From: Phycisphaerae bacterium
GTDB lineage: Bacteria > Planctomycetota > Phycisphaerae > UBA1845 > Fen-1342
Assembly: GCA_963675745.2 (NCBI GenBank)
Contig: CAXXWX010000023.1
Location: 32,001-96,000 of the forward strand
DNA: 64,000 nucleotides
Reading direction: 5' to 3'
The position numbers and the translations under genes are program-made. Under the pieces are notes generated by a model. That model was not told the origin of the DNA. It saw only the letters and a list, made by a program, of their open reading frames with translations, and searched no databases. Below, piece after piece: positions 28,849 through 52,054 of the stretch; position 1 is the stretch's first letter, and each line of letters begins with the position of its first letter.

Positions 28849-28946
28849 AGTTGTCAGTTGGCAGTTGGCAGTTGTCAGTTGGCAGTTGTCAGTTGGCAGT
28901 TGTCAGTTGGCAGTTATCAGTTGGCAGTTATTAGTGGTCGGTGGTC
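28849..28946. repeat. Tandem heptamer array (AGTTGGC/AGTTGTC), 12 units plus 2 degenerate
   Basis: Directly readable 7-bp periodicity filling almost the entire mrdA-rodA intergenic space. Confidence 0.95.
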
Positions 28947-33862: not shown

Positions 33863-34114
33863 GCGCCGGTCCCATAGGTAGCGGCCCCATCAGTCGGTCG
33901 CTTGTGCGAACCGGTCGAGGCTTCAAATGCGGAATGAAGAATGATGAATGCAGAAACCGTAGAGGCGGCACGTTGCGAGGTTCTGCATTCTTCATTCCGC
34001 ATTCTGCATTCTCCACCGCCGTGGGCGACTAACGTTGGCTGCCCCACGGCGTTTCTGCATTCTGCATTCCGCATTCCGCATTCCGCATTCTGCATTCTGC
34101 ATTCTCCACCGCCG
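33863..34114. repeat. Composite repeat element copy 1: 92-bp unit, GAATG(C/A)(G/A) heptamer hairpin and an extra run of about 7 heptamers
   Basis: 33863-33954 is identical to 36790-36881; inverted heptamer arms at about 33926-33955 and 33981-34012; extra (TTCYGCA)n at 34053-34105. Confidence 0.9.
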
Positions 34115-36701: not shown

Positions 36702-36959
36702 GTAACGGCCTGCGCCTCCCAGGCCGTCGATACTCAGTCGGGACATGCCGACGCAAACAGCCGTCGGCATGGCACCCGGCTGTAATCCAGCGCCGGTCCC
36801 ATAGGTAGCGGCCCCATCAGTCGGTCGCTTGTGCGAACCGGTCGAGGCTTCAAATGCGGAATGAAGAATGATGAATGCAGACCCCCCCAACGTGCCGCCT
36901 TGTCGGTTTCTGCATTCATCATTCCGCATTCTGCATTCTCCGCGCGTGCCCCACGGCGT
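36702..36959. repeat. Repeat cluster: two REP-like palindromes plus composite repeat element copy 2
   Basis: gtaacggcctgcgcc (36702; also at 42316); palindrome 36745-36781; 92-bp unit 36790-36881; heptamer arm 36908-36941; gccccacggcgt 36948-36959 shared with 34041-34052. Confidence 0.85.
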
Positions 36960-47311: not shown

Positions 47312-47550
47312 TTGCCACCGGTTTCAGCGGGCGGTGCCGGTTTACCATCACCACTCGGGCCGGCTTCTCGCTGCGCCGTTCGAAGCCCGGCTGAAGCCGG
47401 CTGCGTGGGGATGGGAATCCGAGTAAGCCCTCGTCCACCAACTGAAGTTGGTGGCAAGTGCTGGTCGGCTGAAGCCGACCGACGGGGGCGACGCGTCAAC
47501 TCACAAGCGACAACGACCTGAATATGCCCATCTGCTGAAGCCGACCGACG
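47312..47550. repeat. Cluster of REP-like palindromes
   Basis: ttgccaccggtttcag (47312) is inverted with ctgaagttggtggcaa (47442); CTGAAGCCG cores at about 47391, 47469 and 47535; related cgggcttcagcccg at about 45668. Confidence 0.55.
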
Positions 47551-47784
47551 GACCGACGTGTCAGCTCACAGACGTCAACAATCTGAATGTGTGCAGTTGC
47601 TGGAGCCGACCGCCGGCGCACCGCGGACGCGAACAGCGCGCGGCGGTGCCGGTTTACGCCAGCCTTACCAGATCGTAAACTAGCGTCTGGTCGCAAACGC
47701 GTGTCGGCGCACTGCCGGCGGGCGTTACCGAGCGGCCGCCCGCACCCGCGCTGAATGCGGGTTCTGGGTGTTTGACAAGTGAAT

Positions 47785-48234
47785 GGGCCCATAGCTCAGT
47801 TGGTTAGAGCAGCCGACTTAACGCGTCGCCGGCGCTAAAACACTCCCGCGTCTTTCAGATGCACTCACAAGCGGGCGTGTCATGCTCGACGGCGCAGGGT
47901 CTTTCCGGCGGGAACGTCGGATTAGCAGGTTGTCAAAGTCGGGGAAAGCTAAGGGCGGAAACGCCTATGCCAATCCCGAGCCAAGCAGGAGATGAGAAGC
48001 GAATGAAGAATGCGGAATGATGAATGCAGAAGGCCGGCGACGCGTGCCGATCCATGAATCGCCAACCCTATTCTGCATTTCGCATTCACCATTCTGCATT
48101 CTCCGTCTCCGGGCGTGTGTAGAGACTGGACGGCAACCCACCCAGGCCGGGTGAAGGGACAGTCCGAGCCCACGGGAAACCGTGGAACAAGTCGCATAAT
48201 CGGCTGGTCGCAGGTTCGAGTCCTGCTGGGCCCA
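47785..48234 (+). tRNA. tRNA-Ile2 (anticodon CAU, lysidine type), split by an intron; exons 47785-47818 and 48195-48234
   Basis: Joined exons GGGCCCATAGCTCAGTTGGTTAGAGCAGCCGACT+CATAATCGGCTGGTCGCAGGTTCGAGTCCTGCTGGGCCCA fold into a full cloverleaf. G1-C72 pair and no GGG/CCC anticodon stem argue against fMet; sequence resembles E. coli ileX. CCA is not encoded. Confidence 0.9.
47819..48194 (+). ncRNA. Group I self-splicing intron (IC3-like), 376 nt, no ORF
   Basis: Follows a U and ends in G. Core elements TCAAAGTCGGGGAAAGC, AATCCCGAGCCAAGC, GTAGAGACTGGACGG, GAAGGGACAGTCC. P3 ggttgtc(47928)/ggcaacc(48132); P7 gactg(48124)/cagtc(48160); GNRA-capped P2, P5 and P9. Confidence 0.92.
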
Positions 48235-48530
48235 ATAACCACATCTTCAACGCAGACCACTTCCTCGATCAATCTCCGCGCCAAATGGACGGGAGGCCGA
48301 CACTCTGAGCCAGCGCTGTTGGCCCCGCGCGCACTAACCGACCGAAGTCGGGCCGGCCGGCCGATACGGCGATGGCGGGCCGGTTCGAGCTAACGCGTTT
48401 TACCTCATAGCGCAGCGGCCGACCCCCGAGTCGGCCGTGACCTCGAGAGAGTGCATGCTGGTTGACCACGTCCGACTCTGGGGTCTGACGCTACAGGTAA
48501 ACGTCAATTGCTCTAATGCGTGCGTTCACT

Positions 48531-48604: not shown

Positions 48605-51600
48605 CTAGCTGCTGAGCAGGGCGACAAACGGATCAATGTCGCCGTTGTTGACAAAGCCGTCGTCGTTGATGTCCGCCAGGTTAATGTCGCAGTCCGGATA
48701 CGCCGTGGCGTAGGCGCCCGGGTCCGAGACAGCCAGCACGAACGGATCGATATCGCCGTTGTTGACAAACCCGTCGCAGTTCAAGTCGCCGAGCTCGTAT
48801 TGGGACACCTCACCGAAGGTCAGATTATCGACGGCCAATGAGCCGCCGCCGCCCCAGGTGAACATGCCGTCGGCCATCGAGAGCTGCACCGCAAAGGCGT
48901 CCATTCCGGTCAGGAAGCCCGGCACCGGGCCGACCACGGTCTCGAAACCCTCCGAAACCACCGAGCCGCCCGCGTCGGACACCGAGACATTGTCGAAGTA
49001 CACGGTCGCCCCGGTGCCCCACGTCGGCGTGCGATAGCCGAACACGATGATGGTCGCGATGTAGGTCGGGGAGTTCGGATCGAACCCGCTCTCCGCGCTG
49101 AAGGTGTTCAGCGTGCCGCCGAGGGTATGGAAGCTGCCATCGACCGCCGAGCTGTCCCAGGATATCCGCTTGCCGTACTGGTCCTCGAGCCGGAGCGTGA
49201 TGATGCCGGCCGACTCACCGGCGTTCGGATCCCAGATGCCCTTGCAGTCGGCGGTGAACGACACCTGGTTGAGGTTGCTCAAGTCGAGCGCAAGACCAGG
49301 CCAGGCCACGCCGGCCCAGTACCAGCCGGGCGGCGACTCGATGCCCGTGACGTTGAACATACCGCCGCCACTGCCGCCGACGCCACAGGTGGCGCATCCT
49401 TCGACGGTGGCGGTCTCGATCGACGAGCCCCAGCCGAAGCCGGCGAACGCGGTCTCGCCTTCAAGCCCGATGTCCCAGGACGTGAGCGTGGAACCCCACT
49501 CGGGGTAGAACTGGCCACCCTCCGGCGGCCAGGTGGACTCACCGTCCGCCACCAGCCCGCCCACGGACTGGAAGCTGCCGTCCGCCGTGCCTGTGAAGGC
49601 CACGTGGCCGCCTTCCTTGAGCTTCGGGGTCGGGGATGGTGACAAGTAGACGTCGTCAACCGTCAGCGTGCCGCCCCAATTCCCATAGGCCGAGAACGGC
49701 GGCCCCTCGCCGATGAACATGATGACGATGTTGTAATCCAGGCTCGTATCGATGTCGAACACGCCGTTGCTTCCGTCGACGAAGCCGCTGACAGTGTAGC
49801 CGGACAGCGGACCGCCGATGGACTGCCAGGTGCCGTCGTAAACCTCGTCGAAGCCGATCCAGTCGCCGTCCGGGTCTTCGATCCGCAGGATGTACGTAGC
49901 CGGATCCTGAAGCCACTCCTCGTTCCAGGTGCCCTTGGCCTTTGCGGACAGGGTCACCTCCGACAGATTCGCCGAAGCCAGCGCCTGCTCGCGCCAGACG
50001 GCGCCGGCGTACCAGTAGCCGTCCTCGTCGGGCCAGACGTCGAGCACCTCGATCTGCATGCAGCTCCCGTCGTCGCCGTAGCCGCCGCTGGTCAACGCGC
50101 GTACCCACACGCCGCCGGTGGCGGTCACCACGGCGTCCAGCGTGCCGAAGAACACCTCATCGTTCTCGATCTGCGAATTCCAGTTGACGACGGTGCCGCT
50201 GGTGTCATCGGGACCGGCCACCTCGACTTCGGTATCAGAAGTGATCGCCGAGAAGTCCTCGTCCACGTTGGGGGTGGCTACGTAGCCCTGGAGACGGAGC
50301 TCGTAATTCGCGCCGGCGATGCTGCCTTTCACGTCGGCGGCCAGTGTCAGTTCCCGTGGATCAAGCACGCTGAGCGACGGCACATCCCAGATCAGCGCGC
50401 CGCCATAGTCACTTCCGTCGGGCCGATTGTTGGTGAGCACCACGTTGTCGACTGACAAGGTTCCACCGGTACCCCAGGTCGGAGTGCGATCAGGGTCGAA
50501 CAGCAGGACAACCTTGAAGGTGTCCGAATCCAGATCGAACACGCCGGTAGCGGGCACATCCGACGAGTCCTTTTCGATGGCCTGATCCAGCGTGTCGCCG
50601 ATGGTCTGCCAGGTGCCGTCCGCCGCGCTGATCGACTCAAACACCAGCCGATCGCCATCGCTGTCTTCGATGCGCAACTGGTAGTGGCCGTAGGCCTCGC
50701 CGGCGGGGATGTTGGCATCACCCAGGACGTCGGCGGTCAGGCTGTAGTCACTCAGATCAAAGGCCGGCGGACCGGCAATCACGCCGAACGAAACCGTGTC
50801 GAAGAAGACCGCGCCATTATCAGCATTCGGGCTGACCAGTTGCAGGACCGCCCGCACTGTCAGCGTGCCCGCCGGGGCCGTGAGCTGAATCGGCGTGTTG
50901 TCGAACCACGTGTCCAGCGCCGACGAGCCATCGAGCACCGTGGCGGCGGTGGTGGAAAGCGGTTCGGAGTTGATACCGTCATAGAACTCGATCCGCATTT
51001 CCGCGTAGTTGGTGGTGCCGTCGATTCCGTCGGCGGCGTGGTGCGAACTCCAGCAGTCGAGTTCCCAAGTCTGTCCCGGCTCGGCGCGCAGCGTCTGAGC
51101 AACGCCCGCCGAGTCCATGCCGGGGGCCTGGCCCCAGACCTTCAGATCCTGCACCCCCGCCTGCGGACTGGATGTGACGATGAGCACGCTCGGATAGGAG
51201 CCGCCCGTATCACACCACACATCCCAGCCGGCAACCGTGTCCCACAAGCCCAGCTCGAAGCCCGGATTCTGGAGAGTGCCCGAGCCGCCGGGAAAACCGG
51301 AGAGCGACCACGATAGTCCGGCGAACCAGCTTCCGCTGTTCAATATGACGTCGGTCACGTCGATCTGGCCCGCGCCGGTGCCCCCGACGCCGCCGGCGAG
51401 CAGCCCCTGGGCCGACGCGTCTCCGTCGAGGACCGCGCCGTCGCGTGTGTAGCAGAACGCCGCTTCTTGCTCGATGCCGTCGTCCCAATCAGACGTTGAC
51501 CCGGACACATTCGGCGTGACACCGTCTCCCGCGAGGAAGACGCCGCCGCCGGTGCCGGTCACGTCGGCAAAATCCTGGTCGATCATGTTCAGGGAGTTGA

Positions 51601-51904
51601 GTATGACCGCCAGCTCGCCGGCACCGGAGCCGTCCACGCCACCTGTGGGCAGGCCCTGGGCTGACATCTCAACGCGGGCGATTCCGGTCGCCTGGCCGAA
51701 GGCGTACTCCCCGCTGATGCCGTCGTCCCAGCCGAGGAGCCAGTCCGAGCCCAGCCCATCCAGAAACACGCCGCCGCCGGTGCCCGTCACCGAATCGAAG
51801 TTCTCATCCAACGACTGGGCCGTCGTTGGCACACCACCCATGAATCCCAGCAGCAAAACGACGATTGCCACCCGCAATCTCACTCGCTGATTCCCAGCCG
51901 CCAT
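48605..51904 (-). CDS. Large secreted acidic protein with repeated CBM-like domains and a C-terminal dockerin-like domain
   Basis: AGGAG RBS; signal peptide; repeated LRIED.DG...DG.WQ.IGG.L...WG.GG.L.VDNV units; tail GDLNCDGFVNNGDIDPFV...ADINDDGFVNNGDIDPFV. Confidence 0.75.
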   Translation of the reverse strand: MAAGNQRVRLRVAIVVLLLGFMGGVPTTAQSLDENFDSVTGTGGGVFLDGLGSDWLLGWDDGISGEYAFGQATGIARVEMSAQGLPTGGVDGSGAGELAVILNSLNMIDQDFADVTGTGGGVFLAGDGVTPNVSGSTSDWDDGIEQEAAFCYTRDGAVLDGDASAQGLLAGGVGGTGAGQIDVTDVILNSGSWFAGLSWSLSGFPGGSGTLQNPGFELGLWDTVAGWDVWCDTGGSYPSVLIVTSSPQAGVQDLKVWGQAPGMDSAGVAQTLRAEPGQTWELDCWSSHHAADGIDGTTNYAEMRIEFYDGINSEPLSTTAATVLDGSSALDTWFDNTPIQLTAPAGTLTVRAVLQLVSPNADNGAVFFDTVSFGVIAGPPAFDLSDYSLTADVLGDANIPAGEAYGHYQLRIEDSDGDRLVFESISAADGTWQTIGDTLDQAIEKDSSDVPATGVFDLDSDTFKVVLLFDPDRTPTWGTGGTLSVDNVVLTNNRPDGSDYGGALIWDVPSLSVLDPRELTLAADVKGSIAGANYELRLQGYVATPNVDEDFSAITSDTEVEVAGPDDTSGTVVNWNSQIENDEVFFGTLDAVVTATGGVWVRALTSGGYGDDGSCMQIEVLDVWPDEDGYWYAGAVWREQALASANLSEVTLSAKAKGTWNEEWLQDPATYILRIEDPDGDWIGFDEVYDGTWQSIGGPLSGYTVSGFVDGSNGVFDIDTSLDYNIVIMFIGEGPPFSAYGNWGGTLTVDDVYLSPSPTPKLKEGGHVAFTGTADGSFQSVGGLVADGESTWPPEGGQFYPEWGSTLTSWDIGLEGETAFAGFGWGSSIETATVEGCATCGVGGSGGGMFNVTGIESPPGWYWAGVAWPGLALDLSNLNQVSFTADCKGIWDPNAGESAGIITLRLEDQYGKRISWDSSAVDGSFHTLGGTLNTFSAESGFDPNSPTYIATIIVFGYRTPTWGTGATVYFDNVSVSDAGGSVVSEGFETVVGPVPGFLTGMDAFAVQLSMADGMFTWGGGGSLAVDNLTFGEVSQYELGDLNCDGFVNNGDIDPFVLAVSDPGAYATAYPDCDINLADINDDGFVNNGDIDPFVALLSS

Positions 51905-52054
51905 AGTCCTGACTCCTTCTTTTCCGACTTCCGATGGCCACCGCACGACGCGGTCACCGAGAAGCGTTGCTCGTTTCCCCGCTGGTCCGGTTCCGCCGCC
52001 GACGGCGGCAACATTGGGAACCGCAGCGCCTTTTCAATCAGCTATTGCCCTGTT

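What the first reader, a model, noticed from the sequence alone, without database searches (positions are those of the whole stretch)
47785..48234. tRNA-Ile2(CAU) interrupted by a group I intron between U33 and C34
Seen: two tRNA halves 376 nt apart join exactly into a cloverleaf with a CT-CAT-AA anticodon loop. The insert has a full group I core (P3, P7, GNRA-capped P2/P5/P9, terminal G). A candidate guide GGTC (47898-47901) pairs with exon GACU through a U-G wobble, after a long hairpin extension in L1. Established: bacterial tRNA group I introns are known from cyanobacterial Leu(UAA) and fMet, alphaproteobacterial Arg(CCU) and Azoarcus Ile(CAU); the Azoarcus intron sits after the anticodon, whereas U33/C34 is the fMet-type site. 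Inference: this is an Ile2 intron at the fMet-type site in a probable planctomycete, easily missed by standard tRNA callers. Splicing would be needed before TilS can make lysidine at C34, so AUA decoding may depend on the ribozyme.
Basis: partly seen in the sequence, partly recalled or inferred. Interest (0 to 1): 0.85.

Follow-up and report, generated by a model that had tools for sequence, protein, structure and literature searches.

The report
Self-splicing intron in isoleucine tRNA gene
The gene for the tRNA that reads the rare isoleucine codon AUA in this planctomycete is split by a ribozyme-type (group I) intron; the case is real and hidden from a default tRNA finder, but the same kind of split gene occurs in many other bacteria.

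Summary
A 5' tRNA half (47785-47818) and a 3' half (48195-48234) are separated by a 376-nt intron (47819-48194). Removing it gives a CAU-anticodon cloverleaf. At least 22 relatives carry the same gene uninterrupted, joined at exactly this point. The insert is an IC3-like group I intron with a U.G pair at the 5' splice site, a terminal G and a P3-P9 core. On 7 homologs, 95% of pair cells are standard pairs and 38 pairs show compensatory changes. Rfam scores this copy at only 31.2 bits (threshold 50); a 67.3-bit intron sits at the same site of the same tRNA type in a Chloroflexia genome.

The exons carry tRNA-Ile2 marks, not tRNA-Met marks. No other Ile2 or UAU tRNA was called in the 91%-complete assembly. 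tilS is present and AUA codons are used. AUA decoding therefore probably depends on splicing, but I found no RNA data.

This is not a new kind. Earlier notes of this scan, which I could not check, say Williams 2020 lists the class as Ile2.2Ug.

One local feature stands out: the P6 arm holds a hairpin made of 7-nt repeats that is also dispersed through the genome.

The parts
47785..47818 (+). 5' exon of tRNA-Ile2(CAU): acceptor 5' strand, D arm and anticodon stem 5' strand, ending at C32-U33
   Evidence: It abuts the 3' half directly in 22 of 30 relatives' loci.
47819..48194 (+). Group I intron (IC3-like), 376 nt, with no protein-coding gene
   Evidence: RF00028 31.2 bits, full model. Six homologous introns in relatives. 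Covariation. The only ORF of 60 aa or more that overlaps it (47949-48284, minus strand) has no Pfam hit.
47815..47818 (+). P1, exon strand G30-A31-C32-U33; U33 forms the U.G wobble at the 5' splice site
   Evidence: GC, AU, CG and UG pairs kept in 7 of 7 homologs (helix 4).
47898..47901 (+). Internal guide sequence GGUC (P1, intron strand)
   Evidence: Invariant in 7 of 7.
47823..47895 (+). Long arm in L1: a P1 extension (47823-47835 with 47884-47895) and an inner hairpin P1a (47840-47847 with 47873-47880)
   Evidence: 9 of 12 and 7 of 8 pairs show changes on both sides (helices 5 and 6).
47904..47921 (+). P2 hairpin with GGAA loop
   Evidence: 100% of cells paired; 2 pairs compensatory (helix 7).
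47928..47934 (+). P3 5' strand, which pairs with 48132-48138
   Evidence: 2 of 7 pairs switch CG to UA in 3 sequences (helix 8).
47939..47979 (+). P4-P5-P5a domain with GAAA loop
   Evidence: Rfam alignment. P4 is invariant; P5a has 2 compensatory pairs (helices 9-11).
47980..48114 (+). P6 arm, greatly lengthened
   Evidence: P6 base GCC/GGC is invariant; P6a has 9 of 11 pairs with changes on both sides (helices 12 and 13). The 151-nt stretch around it folds as one hairpin, -62.2 kcal/mol, z -4.8.
48001..48102 (+). Heptanucleotide-repeat hairpin inside P6: GAATGNN x4.4 (48001-48031) and its complement (48070-48102) around a variable centre
   Evidence: TRF. It is a member of a dispersed family in the genome. 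The stretch is missing from the introns of 4 relatives and is different or degenerate in 2.
48124..48128 (+). P7 5' strand GACUG, which forms a pseudoknot with 48160-48164 CAGUC
   Evidence: Invariant in 7 of 7 (helix 14). Other lineages printed read GACUA with UAGUC at these places.
48139..48153 (+). P8 hairpin
   Evidence: helix 15 (invariant).
48166..48193 (+). P9.0/P9 with GAAA loop
   Evidence: helices 16 and 17; 2 and 1 compensatory pairs.
48194..48194 (+). Terminal (omega) G, the last intron base
   Evidence: G in 7 of 7.
48195..48234 (+). 3' exon: C34-A35-U36 anticodon, anticodon stem 3' strand, variable loop, T arm, acceptor 3' strand and discriminator A
   Evidence: 90-98% identical to the uninterrupted genes of relatives.

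Best explanation
47785-48234 is the gene for tRNA-Ile2(CAU), the tRNA that reads AUA once C34 has been turned into lysidine. A 376-nt group I intron of the bacterial tRNA (IC3-like) type interrupts it between U33 and C34.

Proposed mechanism; every step below is inferred:
1. The precursor is transcribed as one RNA.
2. Exon bases G30-A31-C32-U33 leave the anticodon stem and pair with the guide GGUC (47898-47901) to form P1, with a U33.G wobble.
3. A free guanosine bound in P7 attacks after U33.
4. The terminal G (48194) takes the same site, and the exons are ligated to restore the loop CUCAUAA.
5. Only then can TilS (its gene is present) make lysidine at C34 and IleRS charge the tRNA.

This is the only Ile2-type gene found in the assembly, so AUA decoding probably depends on the ribozyme.

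The intron carries no endonuclease gene. It is found in a minority of the family's genomes and looks like an inherited, immobile passenger. It has two lineage-specific peripheral additions: a structured arm in L1, and a heptanucleotide-repeat hairpin in P6 that is specific to this genome.
For: Junction:
- 22 of 30 fetched relatives' loci hold an uninterrupted gene joined at exactly this point.

Ribozyme:
- RF00028 matches over the full model at E 4e-6.
- Introns at the same site score 67.3 bits in a Chloroflexia genome (above the threshold of 50), 44.3 bits in a genome of the same genus that lacks the P6 insert, and 41.7 bits in a Pirellulaceae genome.
- On 7 homologs, 103 pairs in 18 helices are 95.0% paired, against 34-45% when the 3' partners are slid. 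38 pairs show changes on both sides, and 0 of 500 shuffles reach the observed values.
- U-1 and omega-G are present in 7 of 7.

Ile2 identity:
- The exons have G3-C70, C4-G69, C5-G68 and C11/U12, read against Silva 2006 (passages).
- An uninterrupted ortholog's best E. coli matches are genes annotated tRNA-Ile, at 80-81% identity. The copy fetched from hit H4 has a CAT anticodon.
- The spliced form matches that E. coli tRNA at 63 of 74 positions and metT at 53 of 74.

Dependence on splicing:
- Of 47 tRNAs called in the genome, 3 have CAU: an initiator type, a partial copy of the initiator, and a third type. None has UAU.
- The third type is conserved full-length in 24 of 24 family relatives searched.
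- tilS scores 160 bits against a cut-off of 93.6.
- ATA makes up 3.09 per 1000 codons and occurs in 1274 of 1642 long ORFs (crude ORF set).

Assembly: a 4625-nt contig of public run X1 covers 47600-48232 with no differences. That run may be the source sample.
Against: - Nothing here shows RNA, splicing or lysidine.
- This copy scores below Rfam's gathering threshold, and 4 of the 6 relatives' introns did not reach E 0.001.
- The roughly 115-nt insert in P6 could slow or impair folding.
- The assembly is 91% complete and 6% contaminated, so a second Ile2 gene could be unassembled.
- The reciprocal test for the other CAU tRNA was not clean. Its best E. coli hits are weak partial matches to plasmid genes annotated tRNA-Ile. 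It matches E. coli Ile2 at 52 of 75 positions and Met at 47 of 75. Its assignment as elongator Met therefore rests on G4-C69/G5-C68 and on elimination.
- No promoter-like or terminator-like site was found around the gene.
Confidence: 0.87

Rival explanations
1. The gene is a decaying pseudogene. The intron no longer splices, for example because of the repeat hairpin in P6, and AUA is read by a tRNA gene missing from the assembly.
For: - The P6 insert is specific to this genome.
- This copy has the lowest Rfam score among the introns that scored.
- The assembly is 91% complete.
- No RNA holder was listed; this is a blank, not evidence.
Against: - Every core position that is invariant in the 6 relatives is kept here.
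- The insert prolongs P6 coaxially as one hairpin and leaves the P6 base intact.
- The exons are intact and 90-98% identical to uninterrupted orthologs.
- No other Ile2 or UAU tRNA was called.
- tilS is intact.
Confidence: 0.07
2. The exons encode elongator tRNA-Met, and the other non-initiator CAU tRNA (G000:C27:168933-169007) is the Ile2.
For: - ARAGORN labels the split gene Met(cat), as it does any CAU tRNA.
- The C27 tRNA is slightly nearer to E. coli Ile2 (52 of 75) than to E. coli Met (47 of 75).
- The C27 tRNA's best E. coli hits are plasmid genes annotated tRNA-Ile.
Against: - The split tRNA has G3-C70, which Silva 2006 gives as an indicator of Ile, plus C4-G69 and C5-G68. The C27 tRNA has U3-A70, G4-C69 and G5-C68.
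- The split tRNA is 10 positions nearer to E. coli Ile2 than to Met.
- An uninterrupted ortholog's best full-length E. coli hits are genes annotated tRNA-Ile; the one fetched has a CAT anticodon.
Confidence: 0.05
3. Chance: two tRNA-like fragments flank unrelated GC-rich DNA.
For: None beyond the sub-threshold Rfam score.
Against: - Homologous interrupted genes occur in 6 relatives, and uninterrupted genes are joined at the same base in 22 loci.
- The structure is supported by covariation.
Confidence: 0.01

Closest known systems
Bacterial tRNA-Ile2(CAU) genes split after U33 by a group I intron. In Williams' nomenclature (bioRxiv 10.1101/2020.01.27.920355) this would be 'Ile2.2Ug'.
   Same: Same tRNA type, same site (CU|CAUAA), and U-1 with omega-G. 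My scan of species genomes found 64 such genes with both exons mapped, in Chloroflexota, Patescibacteria, Planctomycetota, Burkholderiaceae, Accumulibacter, Bdellovibrionota, Bacillota and others.
   Different: The family's introns form their own clade of 7 rows (support 100*) on a long stem of 2.18 changes per column. They have a structured 75-130-nt L1 arm, and this copy has the P6 repeat hairpin. I read the whole main text of the preprint. That Ile2.2Ug is in the list rests on earlier notes of this scan, which I could not check.
Cyanobacterial tRNA-fMet group I intron (class fMet.2Ug; named as classical in Williams 2020)
   Same: Same position in an identical anticodon loop (after U33 of CUCAUAA). 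IC3-type core.
   Different: The host tRNA is the initiator. In my tree the initiator-borne introns (30 rows plus 1 other) form one separate 98* clade.
Azoarcus pre-tRNA-Ile(CAU) intron (class Ile2.5Ug; cryo-EM paper PMC13168695 seen only in the search listing)
   Same: Same tRNA isoacceptor, a self-splicing IC3 ribozyme and no ORF.
   Different: It is inserted after U36, so the guide pairs with the anticodon itself. From recall, it is much shorter (about 205 nt) with a minimal P1 and P6.
P6b stem-loop of the Nostoc tRNA-Leu(UAA) group I intron, built from 7-nt repeats (PMC4476775, passages read)
   Same: A tRNA group I intron whose P6 arm is a long hairpin. Its two strands are complementary arrays of a 7-nt motif, and its length varies between relatives.
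   Different: Different phylum, tRNA and motif (GAATGNN here; TDNGATT or NNTGAGT in Nostoc). Here the same hairpin type is also dispersed elsewhere in the genome.

Membership tests
Group I intron (IC3-like bacterial tRNA type) | P1 helix formed by the 5' exon end and an internal guide, with a U.G wobble at the splice site | tested here: met
   GACU pairs with GGUC and the pairs are kept in 7 of 7 homologs (helix 4).
Group I intron (IC3-like bacterial tRNA type) | Terminal G (omega-G) immediately before the 3' exon | tested here: met
   G at 48194, and G in 7 of 7 homologs. The junction is fixed by uninterrupted orthologs.
Group I intron (IC3-like bacterial tRNA type) | Conserved core P3-P4-P5-P6-P7-P8-P9 with the P3/P7 pseudoknot, supported by covariation | tested here: met
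   95.0% of cells paired against 34-45% when slid. P2, P3, P5a, P6, P9.0 and P9 show compensatory pairs. P4, P7 and P8 are invariant and so say nothing either way.
Group I intron (IC3-like bacterial tRNA type) | Score at or above Rfam RF00028's gathering score (50 bits) | tested here: not met
   31.2 bits for this copy. Introns at the same site scored 67.3, 44.3, 41.7 and 31.2 bits. Williams 2020 states that none of the Rfam seeds is bacterial.
Group I intron (IC3-like bacterial tRNA type) | Guanosine- and Mg-dependent self-splicing | not testable with these tools
   No RNA run was listed.
tRNA-Ile2 (CAU, lysidine-dependent) | CAU anticodon in a 7-nt loop after intron removal | tested here: met
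tRNA-Ile2 (CAU, lysidine-dependent) | Not an initiator: no A11-U24/G12-C23, and a paired 1-72 | tested here: met
   C11, U12 and G1-C72. Criterion from Silva 2006 (passages).
tRNA-Ile2 (CAU, lysidine-dependent) | Acceptor-stem discriminators against elongator Met: G3 or A3 with C70 or T70; C4-G69 and C5-G68 frequent | tested here: met
   G3-C70, C4-G69 and C5-G68, by the criterion of Silva 2006. The spliced form is nearer to E. coli Ile2 (63 of 74) than to Met (53 of 74).
tRNA-Ile2 (CAU, lysidine-dependent) | Isotype-specific covariance model (tRNAscan-SE Ile2 model) | not tested
   The program is not among the tools.
tRNA-Ile2 (CAU, lysidine-dependent) | Lysidine at C34 and charging with Ile | not testable with these tools
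   Only the tilS gene was shown to be present (TIGR02432, 160 bits).

The most novel reading that the evidence does not exclude
The P6 arm was not lengthened by random drift. It was colonised or built by a genome-wide heptanucleotide-repeat hairpin system: (GAATGNN)n, then a variable centre, then (NNCATTC)n. The regex used finds at least 14 such units in this genome, and related arms occur in several genera of the family. This would be an independent planctomycete counterpart of the 7-nt-repeat P6b of Nostoc tRNA-Leu introns. It would suggest that the P6 tip of tRNA group I introns is a preferred, tolerated landing or expansion site for such repeat hairpins.
Probability: 0.3. Interest if true: 0.4.

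Novelty: new member of a known kind. Interest (0 to 1): 0.25.

Why it matters
For annotation, the default ARAGORN run here missed the gene, so the genome appears to lack the AUA decoder when it does not. Six of the 60 relatives searched carry the same intron and would be affected in the same way.

For biology, this is one more lineage in which an essential decoding function probably passes through a ribozyme step before TilS can act. The same layout recurs in many phyla, so this adds a Phycisphaerae-type clade to a known class rather than a new principle.

The 7-nt-repeat hairpin in P6 is a small, testable parallel to the Nostoc trnL intron.

Tried and rejected
- RNA evidence: the look-up of sequencing runs listed no RNA holder. 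The two runs listed are contigs of unknown kind from one sample. The 'skips 376' joint 47818>48195 seen in them comes from other organisms' uninterrupted genes in DNA. It is not evidence of splicing.
- Default scans: Rfam at gathering threshold and default ARAGORN were both blank.
- Other group I introns in the genome: none besides this one at E up to 1.
- Endonuclease gene in the intron: the only ORF of 60 aa or more that overlaps it has no Pfam hit.
- L1 arm as a relic of an antisense HNH gene: the nearest non-family introns (611-620 nt) hold a 146-159-aa antisense ORF in L1. Pfam HNH reached only 18.2 bits (cut-off 21.4) in one and nothing in the other. The idea is left open.
- Synteny: trpA lies upstream here, but neither it nor the downstream ORF is conserved beside the gene in the relatives' 3-kb loci. 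This is uninformative.
- Promoter and terminator scan: nothing found.
- Reciprocal E. coli test of the other CAU tRNA: only weak partial hits.
- Earlier notes of this scan for this genome: none.

Full report
**1. What is in the sequence**

The window reads a 34-nt 5' tRNA half at 47785-47818, ending in the anticodon-stem strand plus C32-U33. A 40-nt 3' half at 48195-48234 begins CATAA. Default ARAGORN finds no tRNA anywhere in the window. With introns of 50-900 nt allowed, it calls one tRNA(cat) with a 376-nt intron, 'cgact-Intron-cataa'. The two halves joined in a script fold as a regular cloverleaf with a CUCAUAA loop.

**2. Boundaries**

A DNA search of 61 genomes (this one plus 60 relatives) found the interrupted form in 7. 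These are all four genomes of the genus (G000-G003) and one genome in each of three other genera of the same family (G011, G014, G035).

I examined the 30 loci L002-L031 fetched in that call:

| Content of the locus | Loci |
|---|---|
| Intron at the same junction | 7 |
| The two halves directly abutted (L024 by an Rfam tRNA call) | 22 |
| Only the repeat described in section 7 (L018) | 1 |

The uninterrupted genes join query base 34 to base 411. That fixes the intron at 47819-48194; a shift of one base would not reproduce their loop.

A 4625-nt contig of public run X1 covers 47600-48232 without a difference, so the arrangement is not peculiar to this assembly. That run may be the source sample.

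**3. The insert is a group I intron**

On the 621-nt stretch, Rfam's RF00028 aligns over its whole length (model 1-253, 47856-48186, 31.2 bits, E 4e-6). This is under the gathering score of 50, which is why the default scan was blank. The alignment skips 131 nt in P6 and most of the long 5' arm.

At E up to 0.001, four of the nine intron-bearing loci given to one search scored (L024, the tenth locus given, holds an uninterrupted gene):

| Genome | Locus | RF00028 bits |
|---|---|---|
| Chloroflexia | L036 | 67.3 |
| Same genus, without the P6 insert | L004 | 44.3 |
| Pirellulaceae | L050 | 41.7 |
| Paraburkholderia graminis | L060 | 31.2 |

The other four relatives' introns (L003, L005-L007) and L008 did not reach E 0.001.

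The seven homologs align with an invariant core. I wrote out a structure: the tRNA arms, P1, the P1 extension, P1a, P2-P6, P8, P9.0 and P9 from RNAalifold, with P7 added as a pseudoknot. On that structure:
- 95.0% of 716 cells are standard pairs, against 34-45% when the 3' partners are slid by 1-3 columns.
- 38 of 103 pairs show changes on both sides.
- 0 of 500 shuffles reach any of the five measures.

P4, P7 and P8 never vary among the seven, so they say nothing either way. Across lineages, other introns printed read GACUA/UAGUC where this family reads GACUG/CAGUC in P7.

All seven have U at -1, paired with G of the invariant guide GGGUC, and G as the last intron base. L2, L5 and L9 are GNRA loops.

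**4. The exons are tRNA-Ile2**

Silva et al. 2006 (PMC1635315, passages read) state three discriminators:
- G3, A3, C70 or T70 indicate tRNA-Ile(CAT).
- A11-T24 and G12-C23 mark the initiator.

The split tRNA has G3-C70, C4-G69, C5-G68, C11 and U12.

An uninterrupted ortholog (L020) has its best E. coli matches in genes annotated tRNA-Ile, at 80-81% identity over the full length; two of the eight listed rows are annotated tRNA-Lys. The copy fetched from hit H4 has a CAT anticodon. The spliced product matches that E. coli tRNA at 63 of 74 positions and E. coli metT at 53 of 74.

ARAGORN tRNAs in the genome. Three have CAU and none has UAU:
- One has the initiator marks.
- One is a partial copy of the initiator.
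- The third (C27:168933-169007) has U3-A70, G4-C69 and G5-C68.

A weakness remains. That third tRNA does not look clearly like E. coli Met. It matches Met at 47 of 75 positions and Ile2 at 52 of 75. Its best E. coli hits are weak partial matches to plasmid genes annotated tRNA-Ile. However, it is conserved full-length in 24 of 24 family relatives searched, at 85-95% identity, alongside the Ile2-type gene. The family therefore keeps two distinct non-initiator CAU tRNAs, and the acceptor-stem marks assign Ile to the split one.

**5. Does AUA decoding depend on it?**

tilS is present (TIGR02432, 160 bits against a cut-off of 93.6; G000:C23:143179-143757, outside the window).

I made a crude ORF set: stop-to-stop frames of at least 1200 nt with GC3 above 0.70, skipping the first 150 nt of each. 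In it, ATA is 3069 of 992,445 codons (3.09 per 1000, 6.7% of Ile codons) and occurs in 1274 of 1642 ORFs.

No other group I intron and no other Ile2 candidate was found, in an assembly rated 91% complete and 6% contaminated.

That splicing must come before lysidine formation is an inference: C34 does not sit in an anticodon loop until the exons are joined. No RNA data were available.

**6. How common the class is**

Williams 2020 (bioRxiv 10.1101/2020.01.27.920355; whole main text read) names four classical bacterial types: Leu.3Ug, Arg.5Ug, fMet.2Ug and Ile2.5Ug. No other paper in the library holds the class names. [quoted passage not shown]

I therefore tested the point directly. A pattern made of the P7/P3 and J8/7-P7 motifs followed within 20-50 nt by GCATAA was run over one genome for each of 185,579 species. 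I mapped the exons:

| Exon type | Loci |
|---|---|
| Ile2-like, both exons mapped | 64 |
| Initiator-like, both exons mapped | 31 |
| Other (a record titled Nanoarchaeota) | 1 |
| 5' exon not found by my script (19 with an Ile2-like 3' exon, 4 initiator-like) | 23 |

Of the 64 Ile2-like genes:
- 63 have G3-C70, 48 have C4-G69, 61 have C5-G68, and all have C11/U12.
- 57 are nearer to E. coli Ile2 than to Met, with 5 ties.

All 31 initiator-like genes have C3-G70, and 30 have A11.

The Ile2-like set spans Chloroflexota, Patescibacteria-type phyla, Planctomycetota (Pirellulaceae, Gemmataceae, Isosphaeraceae, Planctomycetaceae), Burkholderiaceae including cultured Paraburkholderia and Caballeronia, Accumulibacter, Bdellovibrionota, Bacillota, Acidobacteriota and Abditibacteriota.

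Earlier notes of this scan on other genomes also describe the class and say Williams lists it as Ile2.2Ug. I could not check that.

**7. Where this copy sits, and what is local**

I built a quick tree of 98 intron cores on 177 columns:
- The window's intron falls in a clade of 7 rows (support 100*) made only of the family's introns, on a long stem (2.18 changes per column).
- That clade joins two 611-615-nt introns from a Bdellovibrionales and a Moraniibacteriota record (98*). This placement needs caution because of the long branch.
- It lies apart from the other Planctomycetota introns.
- The initiator-borne introns form one 98* clade.
- Four named rows have cores identical to four relatives' loci, and their titles read Phycisphaerae or Planctomycetales.

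Two peripheral features are lineage-specific.

*The L1 arm.* Between the 5' splice site and the guide lies a 75-130-nt arm. It consists of a P1 extension and an inner hairpin, both rich in compensatory changes (helices 5 and 6).

*The P6 hairpin.* In this genome only, P6 carries a hairpin whose arms are tandem 7-nt repeats: GAATGNN x4.4 at 48001-48031 and the complement at 48070-48102 (TRF). The 151-nt stretch around it folds as one hairpin (-62.2 kcal/mol, z -4.8).
- Four relatives' introns lack this stretch. One has a different insert and one has a degenerate one.
- The same arm sequence recurs in 35 BLAST pieces across the genome, counting the copy itself.
- A strict regular expression finds 17 forward and 21 reverse arrays, which form 14 forward-then-reverse units. 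It finds none in 2 Mb of shuffled sequence.
- Three more arrays or units lie in the window: 33932-34012, 34053-34105 and 36859-36939.
- Several other genera of the family hold matching arms.

This recalls the P6b stem-loop of the Nostoc tRNA-Leu intron, which is built on 7-nt repeat motifs (PMC4476775, passages).

**8. Verdict**

The observation and the interpretation both stand. The element is an ordinary member of a widespread but little-described class of bacterial tRNA introns. It represents a divergent clade of a planctomycete family and has one curious nested repeat hairpin.

Noticed in passing
window 48001-48102; also 33932-34012, 34053-34105 and 36859-36939; G000 contigs C3, C6, C13, C15, C17, C19, C21: A dispersed family of hairpins whose arms are tandem heptanucleotide repeats, (GAATGNN)n and the complement, around variable centres. 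A strict pattern finds 14 units in the genome and none in 2 Mb of shuffled sequence. One unit sits in P6 of the intron, and matching arms occur in other genera of the family.
   Followed up: partly
window 28849-28929: A second, unrelated heptanucleotide array: AGTTGGC x11.6, read better as a 14-nt unit x5.8 (TRF).
   Followed up: no
window 47468-47616: A 65-nt tandem repeat, 2.3 copies at 79% match, directly upstream of the tRNA gene.
   Followed up: no
G000:C26:52958-53029 versus G000:C28:138530-138604: ARAGORN calls a tRNA(cat) whose 3' 47 nt equal those of the initiator tRNA gene while its 5' part is unrelated. It looks like a partial duplicate, such as the scar of an element integrated in the initiator tRNA gene.
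   Followed up: no
L032-L150 (genome-contig scan): Introns after U33 of initiator tRNAs (31 mapped, mostly Patescibacteria-type phyla and Omnitrophota, two Planctomycetia) form one well-supported clade among the Ile2-borne introns. On this limited sample, few switches between the two tRNAs with the same anticodon loop are needed.
   Followed up: partly
L132: One hit of the scan lies in a record titled Nanoarchaeota. It is a CAU tRNA with an unusual acceptor stem, split at the same site by an intron that groups with the initiator-borne bacterial ones. It could be an archaeal host or a mis-binned contig.
   Followed up: no
L046 827-1306 and L032 877-1317 (strand opposite to the tRNA): The 611-620-nt introns nearest to the family's clade hold a 146-159-aa ORF on the antisense strand inside L1. 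Pfam HNH reaches only 18.2 bits (below the cut-off of 21.4) in one and gives nothing in the other.
   Followed up: partly
genome-wide ARAGORN list for G000: No tRNA was called for Arg(CCU), Glu(UUC), Pro(UGG), Val(GAC) or Gly(CCC). The RF00028 scan found no second group I intron, so these are more likely unassembled or not needed than intron-split.
   Followed up: partly
window 48605-51946 (minus strand): A 1113-aa ORF downstream of the tRNA gene has no Pfam family at E up to 0.001.
   Followed up: no
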